Below are positions 4,540-24,273 of a DNA stretch of 51,604 bases, one piece after another. Below the pieces are notes generated by a model, which was given only the letters and a program-made list of their open reading frames with translations, was not told the origin of the DNA and did no database searches. The DNA comes from Candidatus Nomurabacteria bacterium (GTDB lineage Bacteria > Patescibacteriota > Minisyncoccia > Phycocordibacterales > UBA9973): positions 1 to 51,604 of the forward strand of contig JAHFNH010000005.1 of assembly GCA_023267435.1 (NCBI GenBank), in the 5' to 3' direction. Positions within the stretch are counted from its first letter, which is position 1. Every line of letters begins with the position of its first letter. The position numbers and the translations under genes were made by a program.

Positions 4540-4578
4540 AACCAAGTCGCTTTATTAAATTTGTTTAATTATTTTTAT

Positions 4579-6532: not shown

Positions 6533-6561
6533 TTGCCATTTTGGGGTTTTTGAGCGATACT
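6533..6561 (+). promoter_or_regulatory. promoter TTGCCA-N17-GATACT, leaderless spacing
   Basis: TTGCCA at 6533-6538 and GATACT at 6556-6561. ATG 6568 starts 6 nt downstream. Confidence 0.45.
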
Positions 6562-6567
6562 CATTTT

Positions 6568-8052: not shown

Positions 8053-8059
8053 TTTATTT

Positions 8060-8665: not shown

Positions 8666-8736
8666 AGTGTCTTAAGTTTTTAAGGTTCAATTATATAGGG
8701 TTTCAGGTCGGAAAGATGTTCAGTAATTCTCTAGCT

Positions 8737-8765
8737 ATCATACAATATATTGATTGACAAGTCAA
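8737..8765 (-). promoter_or_regulatory. minus-strand promoter TTGACT-N17-TATGAT
   Basis: Reverse complement of 8760-8765 is TTGACT and of 8737-8742 is TATGAT. It contains the same 18-mer as the element at 4509-4526. Confidence 0.6.
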
Positions 8766-8792
8766 CATAGAAATTAACTTAATGCAATAAAT

Positions 8793-11191: not shown

Positions 11192-11286
11192 ATTAATTTA
11201 TTATTATTTTTAATAAAAAAGAAAAGGGAAGTGTCGTGTGAGTTATCCACTTTCTGTATATAAATATTACTTTTCTTTGCATTATT

Positions 11287-11295
11287 TGGTATAAT
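11287..11295 (+). promoter_or_regulatory. extended -10 (TGgTATAAT) of the giant gene
   Basis: TGGTATAAT at 11287-11295. GTG 11302 is 6 nt downstream and ATG 11320 is 24 nt downstream. Confidence 0.55.
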
Positions 11296-11301
11296 TTAAT
11301 T

Positions 11302-14300
11302 GTGTACTCTACAAAATATATGAAAAAAATATTTCCGTATATTTTCAGCATATTTATTTTTTCCCTAAGTTTTTTTAATGGGTCGTCTTTTCTCTTGGCT
11401 GCTTATCCAGCGACCCCTTACGCTCCGGGTGAAACCTTGGCTCCGACTTGTGCGCCGGGAAGTTCTAATTGTACTGTTGATGCGCCTATTACTTCTTTAA
11501 ATGGCTTAACTGGTCTATCTCAAACATTTGCTATCGGTACTTCCGGTACTGATTTTAATATTGATTCTACAGGAACCATTCATACTTTTAATATTCCTGA
11601 TTCTTCTGCGACAAACAGGGGACTTTTAACCTCATCTGATTGGACAAATTTCAATAGCAAACTAGCTGCTGCTAGTAATTTGGCTGATCTGACTAGCGTA
11701 GTGGCAGCGAGAGGAAATCTTGGTTTGGGAAATGTTGAAGACACTGCGCTTTCTACTTGGGCAGGATCAACAGTTTTGACGACATTAGGTGCGATAATTA
11801 CTACAGATGCAAATGCATTAAAGATTTCTCCCAATGGAGTTCTTGCCGGAAATACTGGAGAGTTACGTTTTAATGAACTCGCAGCAAATGGCACAAACTA
11901 TACCGGCTTCAAGGCTCCGGATTCGCTGGCGGCAAATGTGATTTATACTTTGCCATCAGCTGATGGTACTGGTGGACAAGTTTTAAAAACAAATGGAACA
12001 GGTGGTTTAAGTTTTGGTGATTTGAGTACTGATAATTTAATTTATCCAAATATAAATAACGCAGAAGGGTTCACTCATATATTTAGTGACGTAGCTTCTT
12101 CTGGTTGGATTTCTGGTGGTGAAATAACGGATGTTGGTGGCGGAGATGTGGATGTCGCTGCAGGAGAAGGCTTGATTCGATCTTTAAATGATCCTGAAGC
12201 TCAACTCTTGTATATTTCTTGGCCAGTAGCTACAAGTTTAAATGTCCCTTTAAATACTACTAGATATTTTGTCGTCAATTATAATGCCGGAAGCCCAGTT
12301 GTTAATATTTTAACTTCAGAACCATCGGATTTACAAACAAATATATTTTTAGGAGAAGTTCATAATGTTGGCGGAGTTCTCGATGTTCATAGCGCTCCTA
12401 GAGCAATTAATGATTTTGCAAAAAGAATGACGGATTGGTCTTCTGATATTATTGGTAATAGAGTTGCTTCCGGTGAAGTTGTTACAGATCCAACTTTCCC
12501 ATCTAGAAAAATTGCGGTTTCATCTGGAGTTGTCTGGACAAAAAATTTAAGTAACATAACCACACCAGCTTTTAATTCTAACGCTAGTGATACTTTTGTA
12601 AATTATTACAGAGATAGTTTTGGTGGATGGATTAGAGAAACAGGTCAGACTGATTGGGAAAATACAAAATGGGATAATAATTCTGGAACACTTCAGACAA
12701 TGACTCCTGGGTACTATGCCAATAGATGGGTAGTAAGAGGTATTAATGGACAGATTTCCATACTTTATGGACAAGCAGAATATTCTACACAACTTGCAGC
12801 ACAAAATGAATCTGCTCCAACTCAAAGACCAGAAGAATTTAACGAAGATGGTTATTATATTAGTCAGTTGGTTTTCCAGAAAAGTGCCGCTTCTTCTGAT
12901 TTAACAATTTCAATTAAGCCCATAATCGGTGGCATAGCTGGTACTAGTGGATCAAGTAATCACAATGATTTGGGTGGTTTGCAAGGCGGGACAGTAAACG
13001 AATATTATCATCTTACTGCAGCTGAACACGTAATTGCAACACAAGTGGCAACAGCTCTTCAGAGTGGATATTTATCTTCATCTGACTGGACGACATTTAA
13101 TAATAAAGCCGGTAGTGGAGCCAATAATGATATCACAAGTTTGTCTGGACTTACTACTGCTTTGTCTGTTGGTCAGGGAGGTACCGGAGCTACAACTGCC
13201 AATGGAGCATTTAATAATTTAATACCTTCTCAAGCAACAAATTCTGGTAAGTTCCTTACAACTAATGGCACGAATACGAGTTGGGCAACAGCCGTAACAT
13301 CTGAATCTGATCCACTGGCATTAAAAATTTCAAATAATTTATCGGACATTCTCAGCGCTTCTAGTGCTAGAGCAAATCTTAGTGCGGCAGCTAGTGGAGC
13401 TAATACTGATATCACATCACTTAATCCTGCTGGAGCACTTACTGTTGATTCAACAGCAGCGCTTAATTTAGGTACGACAAATGCTACCTCGGTTTCTATT
13501 GGTAATTCTAGTACAACTACAACAGTAAATGGGTCACTAGCAGTTTCTAAGTATATTGATTTTACCCCTACAATTGAACCTTCATATATGGAAGGAAGAG
13601 TTTATTATGATAGTAATGATCACGCTCTTTCTTTTGACACAGACATAAATGGTACCGATATGTCTATTGGTCAGACTGTTATGGCTCGTGTAAAAAATAT
13701 TACCGGAGCAACAATTTTAAAAGGAAAGGTTGTTTATGTTAGTGGTAGTGATGGAGCTGGATTTTCAACGATTGCATTGGCAAAGGCAGACAGCTTTTCT
13801 ACTTCTCAGGTTATTGGAATTGTGGTAACTGATATCACTACTGGATCTTATGGTTATGTGACATTTATTGGTCATGTGCATGATCTAGACACCTCAGCAT
13901 TTTCGGCTGGAGATATTGTTTATCTATCATCAACTACCGCAGGTGGATTGACAACAATTAAACCGTTTTCTCCAAATTACTCAATGCCAGTGGGTATTGT
14001 TCAAATATCAAATGCAATAACAGGTATTATTGAAGCTCATACAACTTCAGTTACTGTTGGAGCATTTACTACAGGTTCAGTAGCATTTGGAAATACAGAT
14101 GGGTTTACAACTCAGGATAATACAAACTTTTTTTGGAATAATACGACCAAGCGTTTAGGTATCGGAGATAATACTCCCTCTAAGACTTTTACCATTGGTA
14201 ATGGTACACCTGGTAGCAATATGTTTGGTGTAGATGGTTCAACTGGTGATGTTGCAACACAAGGAAATATTAATGCAGTGGGTAATATTACATTAACTAC

Positions 14301-17300
14301 TGGAGGTGGCAGTGTTAGCGCTACTGGTGGCGGACTTGCACTTTCTGGTGCAGGCGCTTCTAGCTTGACGACAAGTAGTGGAGGTTTGACTTTGACTGGC
14401 GCAGCTGCTTCAGCCTTGTCGACAACTTCTGGAGCTTTGACTCTTACATCTGCTTCAGGTGCGACATGGGGAACAAGTACAGGGAATCTTTTATTGCAGG
14501 CAGCAAGTGCGGGTGCAGCTAGTGTGATAATCGGTTCTGGTGCAGGCTCTGCTACACCTGATACATTAGTTTTAGATATAAAGAATGATAATGCCACTGA
14601 TCCATCTGGTAGTGCTGGAGCGATGTACTACAATTCTAGTTCTAATAAATTTAGATGTTATGAGAATGGAATTTGGATAGATTGTATTTCTATTGATAAC
14701 GACACCCTTTCATCTTTATTGGCGGCAGCTAGTGGTAGTACTATAAACAACGGTGATAATGCTCAGAATTGGAATTGGGCATTGACGACAGCTGATAAAG
14801 CAGGACTTAACTTTGGAGAAAATACTCCTTCGACTGCTACCGGTTTGTCTGCGGTGCTTAAAGCTTCAACTTTGGTTACATCGACAGCAATGCCACTTTA
14901 TGTTTCAAATCTTGGCGATGGAAATAGTTTCAGAGTTGATGATGAACCAAGTGATATGACTCCGTTTCTTATCGACAAAGATGGCAATGTGGCAATCGGT
15001 GCAGATTCGTTTGATCCGACAAATCCAGAACGTTTGAAAGTTGTGATGCCTTCCGGTAGTACTTCATTTAATGTTATTAGTGGTGAAGGAGATGTAAATA
15101 ATTATCTTCAATTAAATATACATAATGCTAATGCTGGAGACACTGCTTCTTCTGATTTAGTTGCTACCTCTGATCTTGGTAATGAAAATGTCGGATATAT
15201 TGATCTCGGTATTAATTCTTCCAATTACAATGTTCCGGCCCTTTCGATTGTCGGACCAAATGATACATATTTATATGCTAGTGGAGGATTGGCGTCTGGT
15301 GGAAATTTGGCTATTGGAACTGCTGACACTGGAACTGCGCTTAAGTTTCATACTGGTGGTACAACTTCAGCCGATGAAAGAATGAGAATTACAGACGATG
15401 GATTAGGTAATCCGTTAGTGGGGATTGGCACGACAGCTCCAGGATCTGCTCTTGATGTAAAAGGTGAACTTAGATTATCCGGTTCAACTTCTGGTTTTGT
15501 CGGTTTTACTACGAATGTAGCAGCTGGTTCTACGACTTATACACTTCCAAATACTGATGGTGGGATCGGTGATGCTTTAACTACAAATGGTGCAGGAGTT
15601 TTATCTTGGGTCCAGCCGACGGGTGTATGGCAGAGAGTGGCCACAACTGTTTCTCCAACAACTGCGGGGGACAATATTACAACTTCTGGAAATATTTATA
15701 CCAGTGGAACAGGGGCAGTTACTTCAGCTGGATTATTGACAGCAAATGCTGGACTAGCTGTGACTGGTGCTGATGTTAATTTAAATGCAAGTAGCAATAA
15801 TAATACAAATATAAATACAGGTACATCGACTGGTTCAATCAGTATTGGAAATAATTCTGCTGGTGCTATTGGTATTACAAGTGGAACAGGACTTACTTTG
15901 ATCGGCGGTGCAGCATCTAGTTTCTCAACTACGGCTGGTTCCATTACTTTCCAACCAGCTGGCACTGGCATATCTTCAGCTGTTCAAATTGGCACATCAA
16001 CTGCCAAGGCGACTCCCGATATGCTCGTACTTGATGCTGGAAATACTGATCCAGTTTCTGGAACTATTGGTGGAATGTATTACAACACTGTCAGCAATAA
16101 ATATCGCTGTTATATAGGAGCTTCTTGGGCCAACTGTGCTGACAATGGAAGCGGTTTAGATTTGCAAAATGTTTATGGTAATGGTTCATCTATCTCTACT
16201 TCTGGTACGGATATAGCTCTAACTCTAAATACAACTGATCAATTTACTGTCACTGGCGCTGGCGCAGTAAATCTAACTCCAACATCTGCATCTTCATTCA
16301 CTTCTGCTGGCGCTCTTACTTTCACTGCCGGCGCAGCTTCAGATTGGGGAACATCAAATGGTGATTTAGTTTTACATGCAAATGGTTCAGCGACCGGTGG
16401 TGTTCATATTGGTTCCGATGGTGTTCCTTCAGCTACGCCAGATTTGCTTTCTTTGGATATTAAGAGTCTAGCCAGTGGAGTATCAGATCCAGCTGGAGAT
16501 AATGGTGACATGTATTTCAATGAGGCCTTAAGTTCTTTCCGTTGTTATGAGGGTAGCGGTTGGCAAGATTGCGGTGCGTCAGTCGCTAGTGCGACAACTT
16601 TGCAACAAGCATATACAAGCAATCCAACCATTACAACCGCTTCGTCTACTAATCTTGCTTTAATTCTTTCTTCTGGAAATTTCACAGCGTCTGGTACAGG
16701 ATCAGTGCTTCTGACACCAACTGGTGCATCTTCATTCACTTCTGCCGGCGCTCTTACTTTCACTGCCGGTGCAGCTTCAACCTGGTCCACTTCTTCCGGA
16801 GCTTTAACTCTTGATTCAGCAGCTGCGCTTAATTTCGGTACTACAAATGCTACTAGTGTGTCGATAGGAAAGACAGGTGTGACAACAACAAACAACGGTT
16901 CTTTAACTTCAACTCAAACTTTGACAGCATCGAATGGTTTAACACAAACAACTGGCGCCTTAAACTTAACTGCAACATCTGGTGCGTTAAACTTGTCCGG
17001 TTTAGGTGTGAGTGTTATCGATACAGGTGCGAATAGTTTATCTTTGGTTGGCGGTCCGATTAATCTAAATTCAACTGGTACTGGTTCCACAAATATCGGC
17101 AATCTTACTGGTTCTGTAAATCTTACTGGTTCTGTAAATCTTACTGGTTCTGTAAATCTTACTGGTTTAACTGCTTCTAAGGCAGTATTTACTGATGCTT
17201 CTAAAAATCTAACTTCAACCGGTACTGTTGCCATCGCTCAAGGTGGTACAGGACAGACTACTGCTTCGAGTTCATTTAATGCTTTGTCGCCAGTGACAGC

Positions 17301-20300
17301 AAAAGGAGATTTGATTCTAGGTAATGGTGTGAATAGCACTGCAAGATTGCCAGTCGGTGGAACGAATGGAACTGTCTTAACAGTTGATTCAACACAAGCG
17401 ACAGGTGTGAAATGGGCAACAATTGCTTCAAGTTTAGGTAATGTTCTAGATTTTTCAGAACTTAAAGATGCCTTGACTCTTGATGCAAATACTTCCATAG
17501 CATTAGCTGGTAAAAATTTAAGTGTTACAGATACTGGTGCTGGAAATATTAGTCTCACTGCTGGTGGTGCAATAAGTCTCACTGCTGGTGCAGCTTCAGC
17601 TTTCTCAACTACATCCGGTGGTATTTCTCTTCAGCCAGCTGGTGCTGGTACTTCTGTTGTACAAATCGGTGCTGGTGGTGCAGGTTCAACCACACCAGAT
17701 TATTTAGCTCTCGATGTTAAATCATCAACCAGTGATCCGGCAGGAGGCGCAGAAGGATATATGTATTACAATACTTTTGATAATAAATTCCGCTGTTATG
17801 AAAATGCCGGATGGAAAGATTGCGATACGACAGGTGGCACGGTTACTTTGCAATCTGCGTATGACGCCGGCCAATCCATAAATCTAACTAGCGGTGCCTT
17901 AGCAATCTCTGGCGCCGGCGCAGTTAATTTAACTCCAACATCAGCATCATCATTTATTTCAGGCGGAGCATTAACTTTCACTGCAGGCGCAGCTTCAACT
18001 TGGTCTACAAGTTCCGGAGCTTTAACTCTTGATTCAGCTACTGCACTTAATCTCGGTACGACGAATGCAACGAGTGTATCGATTGGTAAGACGGGTACCG
18101 TAGCGACTGTAAACGGTTCACTGACAATTCCAAATTATATTGATTACACCAGTACTAGTTTGCCTGCGTACGCAGAGGGTAGAGTATTTTATGATTCCAC
18201 AGATCATGCTTTAGCGTATTACAACGATGTCAATGGTATTAGAATGAATATTGGCAGACAGTTATGGTTACGCGTAAAAAATACAACTGGAGTAACAATC
18301 TCTGCTGGTAAGGCGGTTTACTTAAATGGTACAGATGGAACATTTCCAACTGTCGCCTTAGCTAAAGCAGATAGCTTATCAACTTCTCAAGTCGCTGGTA
18401 TTACGACAGCCGATATCACAGACGGATCTTATGGATACGCTACACTTAAGGGACTAATTCCTGATTTGGATACTTCATCATTCACGACTGGAGACACTAT
18501 TTATTTGTCAGCAACTACTGCTGGGGCACTCACAATCACAAAACCAGCAGCTCCAAATTATTCAATGCCTTTAGGTATTATTGAAAAAGGTTCAGACGCG
18601 ATAACTGGAAGTATCGAAGCTAATATTGCTGCTCCTACTGCTGGATCATTTACAGCAGGTTCATTATCTTTTGGTGGGACAGATGGCTTAACAACTCAAG
18701 ATAATACAAATCTATTTTGGAATAATAGTAGTAAGAGATTGGGAATAGGAGATAATGCTCCGGGATCAACATTTACTATTGGTAATGGCACACCTGGTAG
18801 TAATAAGTTTTCTGTTGATGGTGCGACAGGAAACGTTGTCACAGCTGGAACTTTGTCTGTGAATGGTGGAATAATTAATACAAACACTGCTTTTACAATT
18901 AATTCATCTGGTGCAAATGCTTTGACTTTGGATTCTACTACTACCGGTACAGTTAATTTAGGTACCAGTAATAATGCTAAGACCATCAACATCGGTACAG
19001 GTACAGCCGGTGATGCGATAAACATTGGAACAAACAATACTACTGCTGATACTATCTCTATCGGTTCTGCATTAGATACATTTTCTCTTTCTTCAACTGG
19101 ATTGAAAGTTTCTTCTGCTGGCGCTCTTACAGGAGTCGCTTCGGTAAACAAAGTTGCTATCACTGCGCCGGCAACAGGTTCGACACTGACCATTGCCGAC
19201 GGTAAAACTCTAACTTCTTCAAATACGCTTACTTTTGCAGGTACAGACGGATCAACACTCAACATCGCTACAGGTGGAACACTGGGAACTGCTGCGTTCA
19301 CTAATACCGGTGCATATGAAGTACCGCTTACTTTTTCTACTGGACTTACAAGATCAGTTAATACTGTCACAGTAAACACAACTCAAAATATCGCTAAGCT
19401 TTCCAATTTGACTTCTAATGGATTTGTAAAAACAAGTGGTGGAGATGGAACTCTTTCTGTTGATACGAGCACATACCTTACCTCTGAAGCTGACACTCTT
19501 GCTTCTGTCACTGGACGAGGTGCGACGACATCAAGTAATATTTCAACCACCGGTACCGGTACTATTACTTCTGCCGGATTGTTGACAGGTAGTGCTGGAC
19601 TTACTATAACTGGTGGAACTGCAAATCTTAACATAACAGGAACTTCGAATACTGCTATCGGTAATTCTACCGGAACATTTAGTTTGATTTCAAGTGGTGG
19701 ATTGAATGTTACAACTGCAGGTGCACTTACTGGTGTTGCTTCAGTTAATGCTAATGCAGTAGATCAGTCGATAACTATTGGAAACGGTACCGGTGTCTCC
19801 GCTCTTACTTTTAATTCTGGTACAGGAGCTATTAATATAGGCACTAATGCTATTGCTCATAATATCAGTATTGGTAATCAAACTGGTACTTCTGCTTTGA
19901 CTCTTGATTCTGGAACAGGAACTATAGCAATAGGAACAGGAGCGCAAGCAAGAACTGTAAACATTGCGAATGGCGGTGCTGTACAGACAGTTACTTTAGG
20001 TTCGACAAATAGTACCAGTGCTTTGACTTTGCAAGCAGGAACAGGAGGATTGAGTATTCAAACCCAAGGTACTGGAGTATTGGGTATTGGTAATAATGCA
20101 GTCGCTCAGACTATTACTATTGGTAATACATCAGGTACAGCAACCGTGACAACTGCGGTAAATATTACAGCTGGTGCTGGTACGACTACTGGAGGCATAA
20201 GAATGACTGGACATATATTAACAGCAGGCACAATACCGACACAACTCCAAAGTGCTGGTACTGCCACGGTTTCAACTGGTTCTACTGATTTTGCTGGTGT

Positions 20301-21531
20301 CGTTACTTCTTCAACTACTTCGCATACTTTTGTGGGTATTACTTTTAGTCATGCTTTTGCTAATGCACCATTTTGTACATTTTCTCCAGAGAATGCTGCA
20401 GCAGCACTTATTTTGCGTACCAGTCCCGGAGCTTACATGACAGAAACAACAACTAATATGAAAATAACCTTTCCAGCAGATATAACCGCCTCTGCTTGGT
20501 CATATCATTGTGTTGGTTATGGCGGAGCGGACTTAGCGGAAATATATTATACAAATGATACCAATGTATCACCTGGCACTGTCGTAACAATGGATTCAAC
20601 TTTGGGTGCCGGAGTAAAGAAATCTACTTCAGCTTATGATCCTAGTTTGATGGGAGTTGTTTCAACAGAACCCGGCTTAGTGCTTGGAGATAAAGCACCA
20701 GTGATTGGTGATGGTCCGACACCTGTGTTCTTAGCTTTGTCTGGACGCGTACCTGTCAATGTATCTGTAGAGAATGGAACGATTGTTGCTGGTGATTATT
20801 TGACTAGTTCATCAACACCTGGAGTAGCAATGAAGGCGACTGGAAACGGTATGATTGTTGGTCAAGCTCTAACTTCATTTGATGGAACCGGTAGCAATCA
20901 AGTTGTGATGTTTATAAAAAATACATATTCACAAGGACAGTTTTCTGTGAATGAACAGCAAGTATTGCTTGGTGACATTTCAACCACTGAAGGTCTCACA
21001 ACTCTTGTCGCTGATGTTCAAGCAGAAGTTGCGCATAATCCTATTGCAATATTAAATGCGAAAGTTACTGCTGGTACAAAAGTTTTGACTGACTTTATTA
21101 CAGCTCGTGTCACAGCTATTCGTGGATACTTTGATGAAATATTCACTAACACTTCTCACCAAAAGACATTATGTGTAGGGGATACAGGTAATGAAACATG
21201 TATTACCAAAGCACAGCTTGATCAGCTTCTACAAAATCAGACAGCTGGTGCTGGAGGTTCAACAGGTAGTGGAAGTACTGGTTCAGGTAGTTCTGGTGGT
21301 ACAGGAACAGGTTTGACAGGTCCAGATGGTACAGGAACGGGAACCACAACTCCTCCTGTGTGTACTTCACCTCAGGTGTTGGATACAACAACAAACACAT
21401 GTGTAGATCCAGCACCAACTCCAGACCCTACTCCAACCCCAGATCCAACCCCAACAGTTACTTGTGCCGATCCTCAAGTGCTTGACTCTGTGACAAACAC
21501 TTGTGTAGACCCAGCACCGGTGGCTCCATAA
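11302..21531 (+). CDS. giant (3409 aa) secreted repetitive fibre/adhesin-like protein with phage-tail-fibre-type motifs
   Basis: Uninterrupted 10.2-kb ORF. N-terminal signal peptide or anchor (MKKIFPYIFSIFIFSLSFFNGSSFLLAA from ATG 11320). Motifs: AARGNLGLG, G(L/Y)LSSSDWTxFNxK x2, HNDLGGLQGG..EYYHLT, QGGTG(A/Q)TTA x2, and Gly/Ala/Thr/Ser-rich beta-helix-like repeats. C-terminal ADLAEIYY...PVFLALSGRVPVNV...GDYLTSSSTPGVAMKA module. Confidence 0.9.
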   Translation: MYSTKYMKKIFPYIFSIFIFSLSFFNGSSFLLAAYPATPYAPGETLAPTCAPGSSNCTVDAPITSLNGLTGLSQTFAIGTSGTDFNIDSTGTIHTFNIPDSSATNRGLLTSSDWTNFNSKLAAASNLADLTSVVAARGNLGLGNVEDTALSTWAGSTVLTTLGAIITTDANALKISPNGVLAGNTGELRFNELAANGTNYTGFKAPDSLAANVIYTLPSADGTGGQVLKTNGTGGLSFGDLSTDNLIYPNINNAEGFTHIFSDVASSGWISGGEITDVGGGDVDVAAGEGLIRSLNDPEAQLLYISWPVATSLNVPLNTTRYFVVNYNAGSPVVNILTSEPSDLQTNIFLGEVHNVGGVLDVHSAPRAINDFAKRMTDWSSDIIGNRVASGEVVTDPTFPSRKIAVSSGVVWTKNLSNITTPAFNSNASDTFVNYYRDSFGGWIRETGQTDWENTKWDNNSGTLQTMTPGYYANRWVVRGINGQISILYGQAEYSTQLAAQNESAPTQRPEEFNEDGYYISQLVFQKSAASSDLTISIKPIIGGIAGTSGSSNHNDLGGLQGGTVNEYYHLTAAEHVIATQVATALQSGYLSSSDWTTFNNKAGSGANNDITSLSGLTTALSVGQGGTGATTANGAFNNLIPSQATNSGKFLTTNGTNTSWATAVTSESDPLALKISNNLSDILSASSARANLSAAASGANTDITSLNPAGALTVDSTAALNLGTTNATSVSIGNSSTTTTVNGSLAVSKYIDFTPTIEPSYMEGRVYYDSNDHALSFDTDINGTDMSIGQTVMARVKNITGATILKGKVVYVSGSDGAGFSTIALAKADSFSTSQVIGIVVTDITTGSYGYVTFIGHVHDLDTSAFSAGDIVYLSSTTAGGLTTIKPFSPNYSMPVGIVQISNAITGIIEAHTTSVTVGAFTTGSVAFGNTDGFTTQDNTNFFWNNTTKRLGIGDNTPSKTFTIGNGTPGSNMFGVDGSTGDVATQGNINAVGNITLTTGGGSVSATGGGLALSGAGASSLTTSSGGLTLTGAAASALSTTSGALTLTSASGATWGTSTGNLLLQAASAGAASVIIGSGAGSATPDTLVLDIKNDNATDPSGSAGAMYYNSSSNKFRCYENGIWIDCISIDNDTLSSLLAAASGSTINNGDNAQNWNWALTTADKAGLNFGENTPSTATGLSAVLKASTLVTSTAMPLYVSNLGDGNSFRVDDEPSDMTPFLIDKDGNVAIGADSFDPTNPERLKVVMPSGSTSFNVISGEGDVNNYLQLNIHNANAGDTASSDLVATSDLGNENVGYIDLGINSSNYNVPALSIVGPNDTYLYASGGLASGGNLAIGTADTGTALKFHTGGTTSADERMRITDDGLGNPLVGIGTTAPGSALDVKGELRLSGSTSGFVGFTTNVAAGSTTYTLPNTDGGIGDALTTNGAGVLSWVQPTGVWQRVATTVSPTTAGDNITTSGNIYTSGTGAVTSAGLLTANAGLAVTGADVNLNASSNNNTNINTGTSTGSISIGNNSAGAIGITSGTGLTLIGGAASSFSTTAGSITFQPAGTGISSAVQIGTSTAKATPDMLVLDAGNTDPVSGTIGGMYYNTVSNKYRCYIGASWANCADNGSGLDLQNVYGNGSSISTSGTDIALTLNTTDQFTVTGAGAVNLTPTSASSFTSAGALTFTAGAASDWGTSNGDLVLHANGSATGGVHIGSDGVPSATPDLLSLDIKSLASGVSDPAGDNGDMYFNEALSSFRCYEGSGWQDCGASVASATTLQQAYTSNPTITTASSTNLALILSSGNFTASGTGSVLLTPTGASSFTSAGALTFTAGAASTWSTSSGALTLDSAAALNFGTTNATSVSIGKTGVTTTNNGSLTSTQTLTASNGLTQTTGALNLTATSGALNLSGLGVSVIDTGANSLSLVGGPINLNSTGTGSTNIGNLTGSVNLTGSVNLTGSVNLTGLTASKAVFTDASKNLTSTGTVAIAQGGTGQTTASSSFNALSPVTAKGDLILGNGVNSTARLPVGGTNGTVLTVDSTQATGVKWATIASSLGNVLDFSELKDALTLDANTSIALAGKNLSVTDTGAGNISLTAGGAISLTAGAASAFSTTSGGISLQPAGAGTSVVQIGAGGAGSTTPDYLALDVKSSTSDPAGGAEGYMYYNTFDNKFRCYENAGWKDCDTTGGTVTLQSAYDAGQSINLTSGALAISGAGAVNLTPTSASSFISGGALTFTAGAASTWSTSSGALTLDSATALNLGTTNATSVSIGKTGTVATVNGSLTIPNYIDYTSTSLPAYAEGRVFYDSTDHALAYYNDVNGIRMNIGRQLWLRVKNTTGVTISAGKAVYLNGTDGTFPTVALAKADSLSTSQVAGITTADITDGSYGYATLKGLIPDLDTSSFTTGDTIYLSATTAGALTITKPAAPNYSMPLGIIEKGSDAITGSIEANIAAPTAGSFTAGSLSFGGTDGLTTQDNTNLFWNNSSKRLGIGDNAPGSTFTIGNGTPGSNKFSVDGATGNVVTAGTLSVNGGIINTNTAFTINSSGANALTLDSTTTGTVNLGTSNNAKTINIGTGTAGDAINIGTNNTTADTISIGSALDTFSLSSTGLKVSSAGALTGVASVNKVAITAPATGSTLTIADGKTLTSSNTLTFAGTDGSTLNIATGGTLGTAAFTNTGAYEVPLTFSTGLTRSVNTVTVNTTQNIAKLSNLTSNGFVKTSGGDGTLSVDTSTYLTSEADTLASVTGRGATTSSNISTTGTGTITSAGLLTGSAGLTITGGTANLNITGTSNTAIGNSTGTFSLISSGGLNVTTAGALTGVASVNANAVDQSITIGNGTGVSALTFNSGTGAINIGTNAIAHNISIGNQTGTSALTLDSGTGTIAIGTGAQARTVNIANGGAVQTVTLGSTNSTSALTLQAGTGGLSIQTQGTGVLGIGNNAVAQTITIGNTSGTATVTTAVNITAGAGTTTGGIRMTGHILTAGTIPTQLQSAGTATVSTGSTDFAGVVTSSTTSHTFVGITFSHAFANAPFCTFSPENAAAALILRTSPGAYMTETTTNMKITFPADITASAWSYHCVGYGGADLAEIYYTNDTNVSPGTVVTMDSTLGAGVKKSTSAYDPSLMGVVSTEPGLVLGDKAPVIGDGPTPVFLALSGRVPVNVSVENGTIVAGDYLTSSSTPGVAMKATGNGMIVGQALTSFDGTGSNQVVMFIKNTYSQGQFSVNEQQVLLGDISTTEGLTTLVADVQAEVAHNPIAILNAKVTAGTKVLTDFITARVTAIRGYFDEIFTNTSHQKTLCVGDTGNETCITKAQLDQLLQNQTAGAGGSTGSGSTGSGSSGGTGTGLTGPDGTGTGTTTPPVCTSPQVLDTTTNTCVDPAPTPDPTPTPDPTPTVTCADPQVLDSVTNTCVDPAPVAP
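13435..14271 (+). repeat. intragenic ~279-aa module, copy 1
   Basis: Collinear with 18019-18855 (ALTxDSxxALNLGTTNATSVSIG ... KRLGIGDNxPxxTFTIGNGTPGSN). Roughly 55-60% amino-acid identity by eye. Confidence 0.85.
17101..17167 (+). repeat. perfect 18-bp tandem repeat x3.7 (NLTGSV)n
   Basis: aatcttactggttctgta is repeated at 17101, 17119 and 17137, with a partial unit at 17155-17167. Confidence 0.95.
18019..18855 (+). repeat. intragenic ~279-aa module, copy 2
   Basis: See copy 1 at 13435-14271. Confidence 0.85.
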
Positions 21532-21577
21532 TTAGAAATATGATAATATTAGTAACATTAAAAATAATTTAAAATAT

Positions 21578-22009
21578 ATGCAATATTTAAACAAAAAAAC
21601 ATTAATAGCATTAGTAGCAGTCATTATTCTTTTAGTTGGTTATGGCGGTGCGTTTTATTATTACCGTCAATATAAACAAGTAACTAGAGATCCTAACGCT
21701 GTTGCAAAAAAAGAAACAGCTGACCTTGTAGCTACAGTTAGTAAATTAATTTTACTTCCAACAGGCGAGTCTCCAGCTGTCGCAACTATTCAAGACAAAG
21801 AAAAGTTATCAGCAGAACCATTTTTTGCTAATGCATTAAATGGTGACAAAGTCCTTATTTATTACGCTGCTAAAAAAGCATTCTTATACCGCCCTTCAAC
21901 AAACAAAATCATAGAAGCTGCACCACTTTCTACCCAGCAAACTGCTAGTACAATAGCTCCTACAATCGAAAGTACAGCTACAACACCAGTAAAACCAGCC
22001 AAGAAATAA
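21578..22009 (+). CDS. small membrane-anchored protein
   Basis: 143-aa ORF with one N-terminal TM helix (LIALVAVIILLVGYGGAFYYY). It starts 46 nt after the giant gene with no intervening terminator. Confidence 0.75.
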   Translation: MQYLNKKTLIALVAVIILLVGYGGAFYYYRQYKQVTRDPNAVAKKETADLVATVSKLILLPTGESPAVATIQDKEKLSAEPFFANALNGDKVLIYYAAKKAFLYRPSTNKIIEAAPLSTQQTASTIAPTIESTATTPVKPAKK

Positions 22010-22041
22010 TTTCTTAGGGTTTGCGGTATAGTTAAGTTTTT

Positions 22042-23502
22042 ATGCCAAAAAATAATTCTTTATTAATTCTAATATGTTTTATTTTTACTTTGGGCATATT
22101 AATACCTAATTATCTTTTTGCTTCTAATACTGATGGAACAATTGATTCCACTTCTAAATATGCCTGGGGCGAGAATATCGGCTGGGTTAATTTTGGTTTG
22201 ATTGCCAACGGAAATGTGCACGTTACAGATGTCGGACTGACAGGTTATGCTTGGAATGAAAGATATGGCTGGATAAATTTAAATGCCAATGGTACCGCTA
22301 CGGGGCATGTGACAAATGACGGAGAGGGAACTTTAGGTGGCAATGCTTGGGGGGAAAAATTAGGCTGGATAAATTTTACTGGAGTAACGATTAATTCTAG
22401 TGGAGATTTTTCAGGTTATGCGACTATTGTTTCTGATAGTAGTAAAATAAGTTTTAATTGTTTGAATACAAGTTCGTGTGGATCTTCTAATTTTAAAATA
22501 AATACAGATTGGCGACCAATCAGCACAAGGGGAGCTGTAACTTGTACTTCTTGGACATACTCCAGTTTTAGTAGTTGTTCAGGTGGTTCGCAATCTAGAA
22601 CCATTATTTCTTCATCTCCATCTGGGTGTACCGGTGGCAGTCCTGTCTTAACTCAAAGCTGTGTTATTGTCGGAGGTGGCGGTGGAGGAGGCGGGGGTGG
22701 TTCTTATACTCCACCAATAATAACACCACCGACTGTTTCAACAAATCCAGTTGGCTGTACTTTAGTTACTTTGTTTAGTCCTATCACAGGTCAAGCTTGT
22801 CAAACTATTACAAATCCAGTTGGTTGTACACTGGTTACATTATTTAGTCCCGTTACTGGCCAGGCTTGTCTAAATCAAAATATTACAACTGGGGGAACAA
22901 CACAAGTTACATCTGGTGGCGGATCGATTGTTTTAAAACCAGCTATCAGTCTTTTAACAAAAACTCTCCGTCTCGGTTCTATCGATAAAGATGTAAATGT
23001 TTTGCAGAAATTTTTAAATCTAAATAATTTTTATGTTGCCAGAGCTGGCGTAGGTTCGTTCGGCAAGGAAACAAATATTTTTGCTGGTCTGACGCAAAAA
23101 GCTTTGATTAGTTTTCAAAATACCTATAGTCTTAAATCAGAACTCGGTTTTGTCAGTACAAAGACCAGAAAATTCATTAATGATTTGTTTGTAAAAAAGC
23201 CAGTGGTGGTTGTACAACCTACAACTCAACCTTCAGTTACTTGTCCTTATTTTACAAAAAATCTTAAGAAAGGTTCTAATGATGTTGAAGTTTTGAAAGT
23301 GCAGGCATTTCTGAAAGATCAAGGTTTATTCAGTGTCACATCAGTCAAATATTTTGGAGTGGCTACAGATAAAGCAGTAAGGGATTTCCAAGCTAAATAT
23401 AAAGCTGAGATTTTAACTCCGGCTAATATTAAAAATCCGACAGGTCTTTGGTATGCTAGTACCATAAAACAAGCTAATAAGTTGATGGGTTGTTCTAATT
23501 AA
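22042..23502 (+). CDS. secreted protein: 3x AWxExxGWINF repeats, Cys-rich modules, two peptidoglycan-binding-like domains
   Basis: Signal peptide. Repeats YAWGENIGWVNF / YAWNERYGWINL / NAWGEKLGWINF. CTSWTYSSFSSCSGGSQSRT..C module. Tandem NPVGCTLVTLFSP(I/V)TGQAC x2. Two LxxGxxxxxVxxLQxFL-type PG_binding_1-like segments. Confidence 0.85.
   Translation: MPKNNSLLILICFIFTLGILIPNYLFASNTDGTIDSTSKYAWGENIGWVNFGLIANGNVHVTDVGLTGYAWNERYGWINLNANGTATGHVTNDGEGTLGGNAWGEKLGWINFTGVTINSSGDFSGYATIVSDSSKISFNCLNTSSCGSSNFKINTDWRPISTRGAVTCTSWTYSSFSSCSGGSQSRTIISSSPSGCTGGSPVLTQSCVIVGGGGGGGGGGSYTPPIITPPTVSTNPVGCTLVTLFSPITGQACQTITNPVGCTLVTLFSPVTGQACLNQNITTGGTTQVTSGGGSIVLKPAISLLTKTLRLGSIDKDVNVLQKFLNLNNFYVARAGVGSFGKETNIFAGLTQKALISFQNTYSLKSELGFVSTKTRKFINDLFVKKPVVVVQPTTQPSVTCPYFTKNLKKGSNDVEVLKVQAFLKDQGLFSVTSVKYFGVATDKAVRDFQAKYKAEILTPANIKNPTGLWYASTIKQANKLMGCSN
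22741..22878 (+). repeat. 69-bp tandem duplication (23-aa Cys-loop unit x2)
   Basis: acaaatccagttgg.. begins at 22741 and again at 22810. Confidence 0.9.
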
Positions 23503-23520
23503 AAGCAGATAGATAAGTTA

Positions 23521-23560
23521 TATCGGACATTATTAAAAAATAATGTCCGATAGTTTTTTA
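23521..23560 (+). terminator. strong intrinsic terminator ending the giant-gene unit
   Basis: 12-bp stem tatcggacatta/taatgtccgata followed by gtttttt. Confidence 0.85.
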
Positions 23561-23576
23561 CAGCAGACTTTATAAT

Positions 23577-23605
23577 TTGACAAATTAAGGTGATTATGCT
23601 ATCAT
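23577..23605 (+). promoter_or_regulatory. promoter TTGACA-N17-TATCAT
   Basis: TTGACA at 23577-23582 and TATCAT at 23600-23605. Confidence 0.6.
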
Positions 23606-23665
23606 TACTTTCATAAGTTCTTTATTTATAGCCCAATAAATGTTTAACACTTAAACTCCAATCTT

Positions 23666-24007
23666 ATGAAAGCAATTATGATCTCCGCGAGCAAATTCCT
23701 GGTAAACACATTAAGTGGACCAGAAGAAAGTAAATTAAGCAATAAAATTATTTCCATAAGTGTAACAAAAACTCATTCATTTCCTAAAAACAGCGGGGGA
23801 ATTATCGAGAATGTCCCTAATTATGAATTTCGTAGTTTAAAAGATTGGAATAATGCATTGAGAGGAGGAAGTGAAGCGTTTAAATTAGAATCTAAGCCAG
23901 TATTGCTTGATTGCTACAACATGCTTCGCGATGCTATTGATGGTGATTCTGAACCTGTGCAACCCCTTATTGAAAACCCCGGACAAATTTCGGAGCATGA
24001 ATGTTAA
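23666..24007 (+). CDS. hypothetical protein (113 aa)
   Basis: ORF bracketed by its own promoter and terminator. No recognisable motif. Confidence 0.6.
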   Translation: MKAIMISASKFLVNTLSGPEESKLSNKIISISVTKTHSFPKNSGGIIENVPNYEFRSLKDWNNALRGGSEAFKLESKPVLLDCYNMLRDAIDGDSEPVQPLIENPGQISEHEC

Positions 24008-24019
24008 ACATTTTATCTA

Positions 24020-24059
24020 AAAGCCCTGCAACTAATATTAAAGTTGCAGGGCTTTTTTG
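24020..24059 (+). terminator. intrinsic terminator
   Basis: 12-bp stem agccctgcaact/agttgcagggct followed by a T-run. Confidence 0.85.
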
Positions 24060-24066
24060 TTTGAAT

Positions 24067-24094
24067 TTGACAAAAGAATCATTTCGAGTATACT
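24067..24094 (+). promoter_or_regulatory. promoter TTGACA-N16-TATACT upstream of rpoB
   Basis: TTGACA at 24067-24072 and TATACT at 24089-24094. Implies a leader of ~170 nt. Confidence 0.6.
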
Positions 24095-24273
24095 GTAGGG
24101 GATTGATCGATTGAGTTTCGGATGTACTCCAATCTGTTTTTATTACAAGAGCCTTATAGGCATTAATAATCAGTGTCCGAACTAAATAAATAATAGGCCA
24201 ACAAATATTATTCCTGTCTTTAAACAGGAAATTTTGGTCCCTTTGTTTTTATTTTTCGGAATTTTATAAACGC

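What the first reader, a model, noticed from the sequence alone, without database searches (positions are those of the whole stretch)
11287..23560. 12-kb locus: giant tail-fibre-like surface protein plus a small membrane protein and a peptidoglycan-binding protein
One ORF of 3409 aa occupies 20% of the window. It has an N-terminal signal peptide or anchor. It also carries a mosaic of motifs that established knowledge associates with phage tail fibres and spikes:
- AARGNLGLG.
- GANxDITSL..LSVGQGGTGATTA, plus a second copy IAQGGTGQTTA.
- HNDLGGLQGG..EYYHLT.
- G(L/Y)LSSSDWTxFNxK, twice.
- Long Gly/Ala/Thr/Ser beta-helix-like repeats.
- A C-terminal module resembling auto-processing chaperone domains.
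No capsid, terminase, baseplate or integrase genes flank it, so it appears to be a cellular gene rather than a prophage. It is followed after 46 nt by a 143-aa single-TM protein and after a further 32 nt by a 486-aa secreted protein with two PG-binding-like domains. The first convincing terminator is at 23521. My inference is that this is a host- or partner-attachment fibre, with dedicated membrane and cell-wall partners, in an episymbiotic CPR cell. That combination has not been characterised as a system.
Basis: partly seen in the sequence, partly recalled or inferred. Interest (0 to 1): 0.75.

Follow-up and report, generated by a model that had tools for sequence, protein, structure and literature searches.

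The report
Phage-fibre-like surface fibre cassette, CPR
A tiny, probably symbiotic groundwater-type bacterium carries a 3,400-residue secreted protein built from bacteriophage tail-fibre parts. It sits next to two conserved envelope genes, and similar cassettes occur widely across this bacterial radiation without having been described.

Summary
One intact ORF (11302/11320–21531, 3409/3403 aa) is followed after 46 nt and 32 nt by a 143-aa single-pass membrane protein and a 486-aa secreted peptidoglycan-binding protein, and then by a terminator-like hairpin. The host is a Nomurabacteria/Paceibacterota (CPR) chromosome, and no phage genes lie in the window.

Pfam, PHROGs and NCBIfam find nothing in the giant. 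Even so, three of its modules are significantly similar to annotated phage tail fibres. Its C-terminal module is a distant relative of the phi29 gp12 (Peptidase_G2) self-cleaving assembly chaperone, and a near-invariant A-D-L-A-E motif aligns on gp12's cleavage site. This module defines a very large unannotated family (about 24,000 clusters), nearly all from Patescibacteria among the named hits.

The gene order is absent from the same locus in 80 relatives. It recurs elsewhere in at least 12 other CPR contigs. A conserved N-terminal motif (PGETLxPxCxPGxxNC) co-occurs with the third gene, whose N-terminal domain has no match among known folds.

Most likely this is a Sec-exported, trimeric, phage-derived surface fibre docked on envelope partners. 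Attachment to a host or partner cell is inferred, not shown.

The parts
11287..11295 (+). Extended -10-like element TGgTATAAT, 24 nt upstream of the ATG
   Evidence: Read directly from the sequence. No proper -35 is present: the TTGCAT at 11277-11282 is only 7 nt away. The consensus scan did not list this site.
11320..21531 (+). Giant fibre gene. The ATG start gives 3403 aa; the mechanical ORF starts at the GTG at 11302 and gives 3409 aa. Residue numbers in this report count from the GTG.
   Evidence: a third assembly calls 3397 aa
11320..11400 (+). Predicted Sec signal peptide (MKK-hydrophobic-..LLA|A)
   Evidence: Read from the sequence. Homologues have the same layout, with A-x-A directly before the conserved motif. 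The cleavage site is inferred.
11425..11472 (+). Conserved N-terminal motif PGETLAPTCAPGSSNC (residues 42-57), a candidate docking signal
   Evidence: Present at the same position in giants of other CPR loci. It co-occurs with the YAW-domain gene: 6/7 versus 0/27, Fisher 5e-6.
11965..13026 (+). Module A (residues 222-575), globular, ending in HNDLGGLQGG..EYYHLT
   Evidence: 40-49% identical to proteins on phage-like contigs. tblastn hits to annotated tail fibre proteins MW202484 (1e-20) and Stenotrophomonas phage DLP_6, and to unannotated records of huge phages. No solved relative by sequence.
13051..13539 (+). Tail-fibre shaft motifs (residues 584-746): GANxDITSLSGLTTxLSxxQGGTG, SARANL
   Evidence: phmmer hit to 8vbx_R, tail fibre gp47 of Pectobacterium phage PhiM1, E 2.5e-6
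13378..14451 (+). Large internal duplication, copy 1 (residues 693-1050). It includes module B (about 750-940).
   Evidence: 57-67% identical to residues 2224-2589. Module B matches tail fibre proteins of Roseobacter phage CRP-6 (1e-19), Pseudomonas phage Rollin and 'fibritin' of S-CRES1.
17971..19068 (+). Large internal duplication, copy 2 (residues 2224-2589)
   Evidence: the same phage hits, CRP-6 at 3e-25
14338..17853 (+). Region holding four copies of a ~125-aa module that ends in MYYN..KFRCYENGxWxDC (copies at 14338-14715, 15790-16167, 16225-16602 and 17476-17853)
   Evidence: The same module precedes the C-terminal module in short homologues. No solved relative.
17101..17167 (+). Perfect 18-nt tandem repeat x3.7 (NLTGSV units)
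   Evidence: One unit equals 6 aa, which matches the 3403 versus 3397 aa difference between assemblies. That link is inferred.
20524..20931 (+). C-terminal beta-domain (residues 3075-3210) of the intramolecular-chaperone-like module. A-D-L-A-E occupies residues 3076-3080 (20527-20541), and the predicted self-cleavage is before D3077.
   Evidence: 115 homologues. Homologues P0173 and P0191 pass Pfam Peptidase_G2 over this region. A profile hit to phi29 gp12 aligns D/E on D692/E695. AF2 pLDDT is above 93 here. Foldseek finds phage cement proteins and 3suc, pre-mature gp12. Phage versions start with Y[AS]DLAE and end at the stop codon.
20947..21237 (+). Helical extension of the C-terminal module (residues 3216-3312), with a Cys pair
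   Evidence: AF2 helices. The same segment follows Peptidase_S74 domains in P0153 and P0189.
21238..21528 (+). Low-complexity Gly/Ser/Thr/Pro tail with two C..PQVLD..TNTCVDPAP Cys loops
   Evidence: Read from the sequence; no homology found.
21578..22009 (+). 143-aa single-pass membrane protein: N-terminal TM helix plus a conserved ~75-aa outer core (LP..E.P.VAT..D..KL...FF..A.NGDKVLIY)
   Evidence: A homologue lies directly downstream of 38 of 74 giants that carry the C-terminal module. Longer family members add a LytR_C domain (7 of 42, best E 2e-6). No Pfam or PDB match for the core.
22042..23502 (+). 486-aa secreted protein: signal peptide; N-terminal 'YAW' domain (residues 30-165, 22129-22536; three YAWxxxxGWINF repeats); Gly10 run and two Cys-loop repeats; a sub-threshold PG_binding_1-like stretch (22987-23169); PG_binding_1 (23287-23400)
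   Evidence: 779 homologues carry the YAW domain at the N-terminus, fused to PG_binding_1, CarboxypepD_reg, SLH, SH3_3 or Excalibur. AF2 pLDDT 87.6, pTM 0.84. No fold match in PDB or BFVD.
23521..23560 (+). Terminator-like hairpin (14 bp, loop 4) followed by GTTTTTT
   Evidence: A promoter-like site follows at 23577-23605 for the next small ORF.

Best explanation
This is a three-gene cell-surface fibre cassette of a Nomurabacteria/Paceibacterota (CPR) cell, built largely from bacteriophage tail-fibre modules.

Proposed mechanism, all steps inferred:
1. The giant protein is exported by Sec and its signal peptide is removed. This leaves the conserved motif Y-x-PGETLxPxCxPGxxNC near the new N-terminus.
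2. The C-terminal module emerges last from the translocon, close to the membrane. It is a distant relative of the phi29 gp12 / Peptidase_G2 self-cleaving assembly chaperone and shares the fold class of trimeric phage cement proteins. It nucleates folding of three chains into a long fibre and then cuts itself off before Asp3077 (A|DLAE), as in phage fibres and spikes.
3. The 143-aa membrane-tethered protein is the most frequent neighbour of genes with this C-terminal module. It assists or holds this step at the membrane surface.
4. The 486-aa protein is fixed to peptidoglycan by its C-terminal PG-binding domain(s). It presents an N-terminal domain of unknown fold (three YAWxxxxGWINF repeats) that receives the fibre's conserved N-terminal motif, so the fibre stands on the wall with its variable part pointing outwards.
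5. The mosaic, duplicated, phage-like middle and distal parts bind a surface structure on another cell or on a substrate. For an organism of this kind, a host or partner cell is the most plausible target.

Shown: the gene structure, the homologies, the conserved neighbourhood and the motif/partner co-occurrence.
Inferred: export, trimerisation, cleavage, docking and the binding target.
For: Gene structure
- The intact ORF, signal peptide and spacing are confirmed. The sequence is reproduced in other assemblies.

Cellular CPR context
- rpoB/rpoC/dnaG/rpoD lie directly downstream and there are no phage genes.

Phage tail-fibre homology in three modules
- 8vbx gp47, E 2.5e-6.
- MW202484 tail fibre at 1e-20, and CRP-6 tail fibre at 1e-19 and 3e-25.
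- The best homologue lies on a phage-like contig.

C-terminal module
- Homologues P0173 and P0191 pass the Peptidase_G2 threshold.
- Profile A1 hits gp12 (6qz9, 3gqh; E 0.04-0.06), with D3077/E3080 aligned on D692/E695. The 3gqh chain begins exactly at that Asp.
- D, A and E of the motif are at least 90% conserved in 40 sequences.
- The model is confident. It matches trimeric phage cement/decoration proteins and pre-mature gp12, 3suc.
- 105 IMG/VR relatives sit at the extreme C-terminus of 262-2790-aa proteins, with homology starting at ADLAE.

Conserved cassette
- The order giant -> 143-aa homologue -> YAW protein occurs in at least 12 other contigs, from Uhrbacteria, Magasanikiibacteriota, Taylorbacteria, Nomurabacteria and Paceibacterota.
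- Among genes with the C-terminal module, 51% have the small membrane protein downstream and 15% have the YAW protein.
- Neither partner occurs in 80 viral loci.

Docking idea
- The N-terminal motif tracks the YAW gene: 6/7 versus 0/27.
- The motif also heads other large proteins adjacent to YAW genes that lack the C-terminal module.
- YAW domains are always N-terminal and are fused to different wall anchors: PG_binding_1, SLH, SH3_3, and LPNTG-like or TM ends.
Against: - No experiment or structure of the complex exists. No multimer modelling was possible.
- The giant itself gets no Pfam, PHROGs or NCBIfam hit.
- The link to Peptidase_G2 rests on marginal scores (E 0.04; TM-score 0.37) plus a motif alignment.
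- From memory, gp12 maturation was reported to involve ATP, which is not available outside the cell.
- The 143-aa family is broader than the cassette: only 15 of 73 members follow such a giant, and others sit next to carbamoyltransferase or GT39-like genes. It may be a general envelope factor.
- The motif/YAW association is not corrected for shared ancestry.
- The cassette is absent from the syntenic place in 80 relatives, so it is accessory.
- Nothing identifies a binding target.
Confidence: 0.55

Rival explanations
1. The fibre is real and surface-exposed, but it does not bind a host or partner cell. It would form a protective or structural coat (fibrillar layer, biofilm or aggregation matrix), or a decoy that soaks up phages. 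The two downstream genes would be ordinary envelope proteins that help any large secreted protein.
For: - No target is identified.
- The family is enormous, with giants of 1000-5700 aa (other family members also). That would fit a general envelope role.
- The 143-aa family also occurs next to glycan-modification genes.
- YAW domains are fused to many kinds of wall anchors.
Against: - The modules shared with phages are those of receptor-binding fibres.
- The body is mosaic and highly variable between genomes, while both ends are conserved. This is the pattern of recognition proteins rather than structural coats.
- The cassette is accessory and sits in a variable region.
Confidence: 0.2
2. The giant is released rather than anchored. 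It would be a free phage-like receptor-binding or depolymerase protein (bacteriocin-like or envelope-degrading) that acts on other cells, with the neighbours serving export or immunity.
For: - Phage spikes with C-terminal chaperone modules are often polysaccharide depolymerases (established knowledge; phi29 gp12 is one).
- The giant has no recognisable wall-anchor or sortase signal.
Against: - No enzymatic domain was detected in any segment.
- The conserved N-terminal motif linked to a wall-anchored partner argues for retention.
- There is no lysis or export gene beyond Sec dependence.
Confidence: 0.12
3. A decaying prophage remnant, a horizontally acquired passenger with no function, or a mis-assembled repeat ORF. 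The neighbourhood would be coincidental.
For: - The whole 24 kb upstream of rpoB has no counterpart in 80 relatives.
- G+C is higher in the gene (0.38-0.43) than in the flanks.
- The gene contains repeats.
Against: - The gene is a 10.2-kb uninterrupted reading frame with a signal peptide.
- The sequence is identical in an independent assembly.
- No phage genes lie nearby.
- The same cassette occurs in at least 12 other CPR contigs, and about 24,000 protein clusters carry the C-terminal module.
- The higher G+C follows from Gly/Ala/Thr/Ser codons.
Confidence: 0.03

Closest known systems
Bacteriophage phi29 pre-neck appendage (tailspike) gp12 and its C-terminal autochaperone (MEROPS/Pfam Peptidase_G2, PF11962; PDB 3gqh, 3suc, 6qz9)
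   Same: - A C-terminal module begins with Asp-x-x-Glu, aligned on gp12 D692/E695.
- Homologues pass the Pfam model.
- The predicted fold matches pre-mature gp12.
- The module sits at the end of a long repetitive fibre or spike protein.
   Different: - The giant itself does not reach the Pfam threshold.
- The CPR version adds a ~100-residue helical extension and a Cys-rich tail.
- The protein is exported by a cell through Sec rather than assembled in cytoplasm onto a virion.
- No pectin-lyase-like spike body was detected.
- Self-cleavage is untested.
Phage tail fibres and receptor-binding proteins with conserved N-terminal anchor and variable distal part (e.g. PhiM1 gp47, 8vbx; tail fibres of Roseobacter phage CRP-6 and Pseudomonas phage Rollin)
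   Same: - Significant sequence similarity in three modules.
- Mosaic body with conserved ends.
- Characteristic shaft motifs: ARxNLG, GANxDITSL..QGGTG, G(L/Y)LSSSDWxxFNxK.
   Different: - Six or more times longer than the phage proteins listed.
- Carries a signal peptide.
- No virion genes nearby.
- The N-terminus carries a CPR-specific motif linked to a wall-anchored cellular protein, instead of a baseplate- or tail-binding domain.
Endosialidase-type intramolecular chaperone domain (Peptidase_S74, PF13884) in phage spikes and bacterial 'tail fiber domain-containing' proteins
   Same: - Same logic: a C-terminal, self-removing trimerisation module.
- The helical segment 3216-3312 is homologous to the segment that follows S74 domains in P0153 and P0189.
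   Different: No PF13884 match in the giant. The beta-domain is of the G2 / cement-protein type.
Giant surface adhesins of bacteria (trimeric autotransporter adhesins such as YadA; RTX adhesins such as LapA/SiiE) and the large surface proteins reported in CPR predators or symbionts (Vampirococcus lugosii, PMC8080830, from its listing only)
   Same: Very long, repetitive, extracellular fibre proteins that probably mediate contact. Dedicated neighbouring genes.
   Different: - No YadA, RTX, cadherin or Ig domains detected.
- Export by Sec in an organism expected to lack an outer membrane (background knowledge of CPR, not tested here).
- Phage-derived modules and a phage-type C-terminal chaperone.
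Other CPR surface filaments: type IV pili of Saccharibacteria (PMC11623550) and the Pam pili of Ca. Mycosynbacter amalyticus (10.64898/2026.03.03.709456)
   Same: CPR surface appendages proposed or shown to mediate host contact.
   Different: Those are polymers of small pilins (type IV pilins; Ig-like donor-strand exchange). This is a single giant polypeptide of phage-fibre type with different partner genes.

Membership tests
Peptidase_G2 / phi29 gp12-type intramolecular chaperone (PF11962) | Match to the Pfam model above the gathering score | tested here: not met
   The giant, whole or in segments, gets no hit. Its homologues P0173 (25.6 bits) and P0191 (27.8 bits) pass the 25-bit cut-off over the region that aligns to residues 3072-3209.
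Peptidase_G2 / phi29 gp12-type intramolecular chaperone (PF11962) | Asp-x-x-Glu at the N-terminal boundary of the module (gp12 cleavage before D692; E695) | tested here: met
   The profile alignment puts D3077/E3080 on D692/E695, and the 3gqh chain starts at that Asp. D, A and E are at least 90% conserved in 40 homologues and are kept in phage versions.
Peptidase_G2 / phi29 gp12-type intramolecular chaperone (PF11962) | Fold similarity to the gp12 C-terminal domain | tested here: inconclusive
   Foldseek versus 3suc gives E 1.3e-3, 180 columns, rmsd 4.9, TM(query) 0.37. Phage cement proteins score better.
Peptidase_G2 / phi29 gp12-type intramolecular chaperone (PF11962) | Autocatalytic removal after trimer assembly | not testable with these tools
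   Needs protein chemistry.
Peptidase_S74 (endosialidase chaperone, PF13884) | Match to the Pfam model / Ser-Lys cleavage motif | tested here: not met
   No PF13884 hit in the giant. Only the helical segment that follows is shared with S74-bearing proteins.
Bacteriophage tail fibre / receptor-binding protein | Sequence homology to tail fibre proteins | tested here: met
   8vbx_R at E 2.5e-6; 19 and 14 phage records, mostly annotated as tail fibre.
Bacteriophage tail fibre / receptor-binding protein | Encoded within a virion structural module | tested here: not met
   No phage genes in 51.6 kb. The gene lies next to rpoB/rpoC.
Bacteriophage tail fibre / receptor-binding protein | Homotrimeric fibre | not tested
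   No multimer modelling was available. Support is only indirect: the C-terminal domain resembles phage cement proteins and the gp12 chaperone.
Peptidoglycan-binding protein (PG_binding_1, PF01471), for the 486-aa protein | Match to the Pfam model above threshold | tested here: met
   Residues 416-453: 38 bits in the whole protein and 27 bits as a fragment. A second stretch, 316-376, reaches 19.5 bits, below the cut-off of 23.
Trimeric autotransporter / RTX / LPXTG-anchored adhesins | YadA head/stalk/anchor, RTX repeats, or an LPXTG sorting signal in the giant | tested here: not met
   No such Pfam or NCBIfam hit. The C-terminus ends in ..DPAPVAP, with no sorting signal.
LytR_C-containing envelope proteins (PF13399), for the 143-aa protein | LytR_C domain | tested here: not met
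   The window's copy lacks this domain. 7 of 42 longer family members have it (best E 2e-6).

The most novel reading that the evidence does not exclude
CPR bacteria have domesticated phage receptor-binding fibres into a cell-anchored, modular attachment organelle.
- A giant Sec-exported fibre folds through a phage-type self-cleaving C-terminal chaperone, with help from a membrane-tethered co-factor.
- It plugs by a short Cys-containing N-terminal motif into a wall-anchored adaptor of a previously unseen fold (the YAW domain).
- It swaps its distal recognition modules with phages that target the same host cells.
If so, host range in these symbionts would be set in the same way as in phages.
Probability: 0.3. 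Interest if true: 0.85.

Novelty: new variant of a known kind. Interest (0 to 1): 0.66.

Why it matters
How the very small bacteria of the Candidate Phyla Radiation recognise and hold on to other cells is largely unknown beyond pili. This cassette gives a concrete candidate that can be tested.

- The fibre family has about 24,000 protein clusters and is unannotated in Pfam, PHROGs and NCBIfam.
- It has a defined predicted cleavage site (A3076|D3077).
- It has a defined candidate docking motif and two conserved partner families, one of which has a domain with no match among known structures.

If the model is right, three things follow. It would explain why CPR genomes carry so many giant 'hypothetical' genes. 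It would show a route by which cells reuse phage receptor-binding machinery. It would also allow host or partner prediction by comparing fibre modules with phage fibres from the same communities.

If the model is wrong, these are still large, conserved envelope protein families that deserve names.

Tried and rejected
- A full-length search of the giant in the 5.8-billion-protein database timed out. I used the N-terminal 700 aa, the C-terminal 352 aa and the 486-aa protein instead. That tool returned no hit longer than about 1.8 times the query in any of the three searches, so full-length giants only appeared in the representative search and in loci.
- Pfam on the whole protein and on ten 400-aa segments, PHROGs and NCBIfam gave nothing credible for the giant.
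- tblastn of the C-terminal 576 aa against GenBank phages gave no match. The phage relatives appeared only with the profile against IMG/VR.
- Synteny at the same chromosomal place is absent in 80 relatives. I therefore searched by the partner proteins instead.
- Profiles of module A, the MYYN module, the YAW domain and the 143-aa family have no solved relatives by sequence. The Fwd-subunit hit to the MYYN module (E 0.008) is taken as chance.
- Broad alignments of the 143-aa family were too diverse for the pattern scan. A three-sequence core worked.
- My first reading of a -35 box (TTGCAT) is rejected: it lies only 7 nt from the -10.
- No reverse transcriptase, and hence no diversity-generating retroelement, was found in the window.
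- Literature searches for tail-fibre-like or intramolecular-chaperone proteins in Patescibacteria found nothing relevant. The Pam pilus paper describes a different system.

Full report
**1. What is in the sequence**

The window carries one uninterrupted ORF at 11302..21531 (+) of 3409 codons from a GTG. The more plausible start is the ATG at 11320 (3403 aa). It yields MKKIFPYIFSIFIFSLSFFNGSSFLLA|AYP, a textbook Sec signal peptide, and it lies 24 nt after an extended -10-like TGgTATAAT at 11287-11295.

| Motif | Residue |
|---|---|
| LLTSSDWTNFNSK | 108 |
| AARGNLGLG | 135 |
| HNDLGGLQGG..EYYHLT | 554 |
| YLSSSDWTTFNNK | 590 |
| GANNDITSL..SVGQGGTGATTA | about 603-633 |
| IAQGGTGQTTA | 1978 |

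A 143-aa ORF (21578-22009) follows after 46 nt. A 486-aa ORF (22042-23502) follows after a further 32 nt. A 14-bp hairpin with a T run lies at 23521-23552. It is followed by a separate promoter-like site, a 113-aa ORF with its own terminator, and then rpoB.

An independent Logan assembly is 100% identical over 17768-25334. An ENA assembly has the same gene order with a 3397-aa giant. A perfect 18-nt x3.7 tandem repeat at 17101-17167 would account for the 6-residue difference, but that link is inferred.

**2. Where it comes from**

- rpoB is 85-88% identical to Candidatus Nomurabacteria/Paceibacterota MAGs.
- The rest of the window is ordinary chromosome: rpoC, dnaG, rpoD, a DsbA-like protein, a GT2, EF-Ts, S2, a class II tRNA synthetase, MreB, MreC, TGT and UvrB.
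- Upstream genes encode a Fic protein, a serpin, small PG-binding proteins and unknowns. None matches a phage family.
- Nothing in window 1-24000 has a counterpart in the 10 kb upstream of rpoB in 80 relatives, whereas the genes downstream of rpoB are syntenic.

The cassette is therefore cellular but lies in a variable, accessory region.

**3. Anatomy of the giant**

Curated libraries see nothing. Pfam on the whole protein and on ten segments, PHROGs and NCBIfam all give no credible hit. Direct comparisons are informative.

- **Module A (residues 222-575).**
  - It is 40-49% identical to 465-956-aa proteins from metagenomes.
  - The best of these lies on a 55-kb phage-like contig, behind a 1025-aa gene and near a gene with a large-polyvalent-protein domain.
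  - It matches annotated tail fibre proteins in GenBank phages: MW202484 at 1e-20 and Stenotrophomonas phage DLP_6. It also matches unannotated records of huge phages.
- **Shaft motifs (residues 584-746).** These match the solved tail fibre gp47 of Pectobacterium phage PhiM1 (8vbx_R, E 2.5e-6).
- **Duplication (693-1050 and 2224-2589).**
  - The two copies are 57-67% identical.
  - Its core, module B (about 750-940 and 2279-2470), matches tail fibre proteins of Roseobacter phage CRP-6 (1e-19, 3e-25), Pseudomonas phage Rollin, Synechococcus phages and others.
- **MYYN module.** Four copies of a ~125-aa module ending in MYYN..KFRCYENGxWxDC lie between residues 1013 and 2184.
- **Repeats.** The Gly/Ala/Thr/Ser-rich stretches show only weak 11- and 17-residue periodicity. 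Their fold was not tested.

**4. The C-terminal module**

*Extent and conservation.* Residues 3075-3312 have 115 homologues in the first database. Most of the hits that carry a source name are from Patescibacteria, and none had a Pfam domain on this region. An alignment of 40 shows a sharp N-terminal boundary, G-A-D-L-A-E-x-Y. D, A and E are conserved in at least 90% of sequences.

*Three lines connect it to the self-cleaving assembly chaperone of the phi29 tailspike gp12.*
1. Two homologues pass Pfam's Peptidase_G2 ('IMC autoproteolytic cleavage domain') over exactly this region.
2. The profile hits gp12 in the PDB (6qz9_A and 3gqh_A, E 0.04-0.06). D3077 and E3080 align on D692 and E695. The separately crystallised C-terminal fragment 3gqh begins at that Asp.
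3. A confident AlphaFold model (pLDDT above 93 for the beta-domain) matches phage cement/decoration proteins and pre-mature gp12, 3suc (E 1.3e-3). Both kinds are, from memory, trimeric.

Each line is weak on its own. Together they make a distant relationship likely. That gp12 cuts itself before D692 using D692/E695 is my recollection of Xiang et al. 2009 (Mol Cell), not a tool result.

*Distribution.*
- The same beta-domain occurs in 105 IMG/VR loci, always at the extreme C-terminus of 262-2790-aa proteins. It starts with Y-[AS]-D-L-A-E and ends 1-4 residues before the stop.
- The CPR versions add a helical segment (3216-3312). Elsewhere that segment follows Peptidase_S74 domains. In the window's protein a Cys-rich low-complexity tail follows.
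- The giant has no Peptidase_S74 match.
- Searched against 1.84 billion representatives, the profile finds 29,333 clusters at E<=1e-3 and 24,281 at E<=1e-10. Among the best 150, lengths run from 301 to 5766 aa and the domain lies in the C-terminal part of most of them.
- A scan of species-representative genomes finds at least 572 loci. Most listed titles are Patescibacteria; some TPA bins carry other labels, such as Gammaproteobacteria.

**5. The two downstream genes**

*The 143-aa protein.*
- It has an N-terminal transmembrane helix and a conserved ~75-residue outer core. Invariant positions are L60, P61, E64, P66, F83, G89 and D90.
- Neither Pfam nor the PDB matches the core.
- Longer relatives add a LytR_C domain (7 of 42).

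*The 486-aa protein.*
- It has a signal peptide, followed by an N-terminal domain with three YAWxxxxGWINF repeats.
- Next come a Gly10 run and two Cys-loop repeats.
- One sub-threshold and one clear PG_binding_1 domain close the protein.
- Its N-terminal 'YAW' domain defines a family of at least 779 proteins. The domain always starts near residue 30. It is fused to PG_binding_1, CarboxypepD_reg, SLH, SH3_3, Excalibur or Ig-like domains, or to LPNTG-like or transmembrane ends.
- The domain models confidently (pLDDT 87.6, pTM 0.84), yet it has no structural match in the PDB (best E 0.33) or in BFVD.

**6. Is the gene order conserved?**

Not at this locus, but yes elsewhere.
- Seeding with the YAW domain and with the C-terminal module recovers the order giant -> 143-aa homologue -> YAW protein, with gaps of a few to tens of bases. 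This holds in at least 12 other contigs assigned to Uhrbacteria, Magasanikiibacteriota, Taylorbacteria, Nomurabacteria and Paceibacterota, with giants of 750 to 2500 aa.
- Of 74 informative genes carrying the C-terminal module, 38 (51%) are followed directly by a 143-aa homologue, 11 (15%) by a YAW protein, and 8 by both.
- The reverse association is weaker. Only 15 of 73 members of the 143-aa family follow such a giant. Others sit beside carbamoyltransferase or GT39-like genes.
- None of 80 viral loci has either partner.
- The window has exactly one copy of each of the three elements.

**7. A conserved N-terminal motif tied to the third gene**

- All full-length giants of the cassette start with a signal peptide followed directly by Y-x-PGETL[ED]PxCxPGxxNC.
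- Among loci seeded by the C-terminal module that have a complete 5' end, the motif occurs in 6 of 7 with a YAW gene downstream and in 0 of 27 without (Fisher 5e-6).
- The motif also heads large proteins that lack the C-terminal module but lie next to YAW genes (L089, L090, L093 and others).
- Shared ancestry is not corrected for.
- Adjacency on the same strand, in more than one arrangement, points to a functional pair: N-terminal motif with YAW protein, and C-terminal module with the small membrane protein. The window's cassette combines both pairs.

**8. Mechanism proposed**

The proposed sequence is Sec export and signal-peptide removal, then C-terminus-first trimerisation driven by the phage-type chaperone module near the membrane. 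The membrane-tethered 143-aa protein would take part in that step. Self-cleavage before D3077 follows. The conserved N-terminal motif then docks on the wall-anchored YAW protein, and the variable phage-like body is exposed for binding. All steps after 'encoded' are inferences. They rest on homology, domain order and neighbourhood. I put 0.55 on this picture as a whole, and less on the specific roles of the partners. Attachment to a host or partner cell is plausible for this lineage but is not evidenced here.

**9. Rivals**

- A non-recognition coat, matrix or decoy (0.2).
- A released receptor-binding or depolymerase protein (0.12).
- A prophage remnant or assembly artefact (0.03).

The last is contradicted by the intact frame, the independent assembly, the absence of phage genes and the recurrence of the cassette.

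**10. Comparison with what is known, and novelty**

The parts are of known kinds: phage tail-fibre modules, a gp12-like chaperone and PG_binding_1. The following appear undescribed:
- their use in a Sec-exported giant cellular protein;
- the conserved cassette;
- the N-terminal motif;
- the YAW domain;
- the 143-aa family.

I found no paper on them. I rate this as a new variant of a known kind. It is a widespread uncharacterised CPR system rather than a one-off. Interest is 0.66.

Noticed in passing
window 17101-17167: Perfect 18-nt tandem repeat x3.7 inside the giant gene (NLTGSV units). Another assembly of the same locus calls a giant 6 residues shorter (3397 versus 3403 aa), which suggests copy-number variation within the population.
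   Followed up: partly
window 1-24000: The whole region upstream of rpoB has no counterpart at the same place in 80 related genomes, while the genes downstream of rpoB are syntenic. The region holds Fic, serpin, small PG-binding/CarboxypepD_reg and DUF5666 proteins, unknowns and the cassette. It looks like an accessory island of secreted and envelope proteins.
   Followed up: partly
window 4561-5919 (+): A full-length serpin (Pfam E 4e-124) with an N-terminal extension in a CPR genome.
   Followed up: no
window 22672-22870 (within the 486-aa gene): A run of ten glycines, followed by a 69-nt tandem duplication encoding two NPVGCTLVTLFSP(I/V)TGQAC Cys loops. These lie between the YAW domain and the PG-binding part.
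   Followed up: no
window 34558-35286 (-): A DsbA-like thioredoxin-fold protein. It is relevant because the giant and its partner carry conserved Cys pairs (N-terminal motif, MYYN modules, C-terminal tail) that would need extracytoplasmic disulfide formation.
   Followed up: no
window 23666-24007 (+): A 113-aa ORF with its own promoter-like site (23577-23605) and a strong terminator (24019-24056), between the cassette and rpoB. It has no family match and no homologue in 80 relatives.
   Followed up: partly
L083 / L129 1569-9527: In an Uhrbacteria MAG the giant homologue is split into overlapping ORFs of about 2050 and about 510-535 aa. This is either a frameshift or sequencing error, or a real split. 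The tm143 and YAW homologues follow as in the window.
   Followed up: no
L327, L337, L347 (about 7800-9600); L341 8250-9797: Many members of the 143-aa membrane-protein family (often with a LytR_C end) lie directly after a ~570-aa carbamoyltransferase-like gene or a GT39-like membrane glycosyltransferase. The family probably has a wider role in envelope glycan biology.
   Followed up: partly
L144, L146, L147, L153, L162: Weaker YAW-domain matches occur in MAGs labelled Desulfobacterales, Omnitrophota (inside a 2323-aa protein), Contendobacter, Kiritimatiellae and Acidobacteriota. The domain may not be strictly CPR-specific, or the bins may be contaminated.
   Followed up: no
window 6541-7218 (+): A 225-aa protein combines CarboxypepD_reg-like and PG_binding_1 hits, both just under Pfam's cut-offs. 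These are the domains found in the C-terminal parts of many YAW-family proteins, but this protein has no YAW domain.
   Followed up: no
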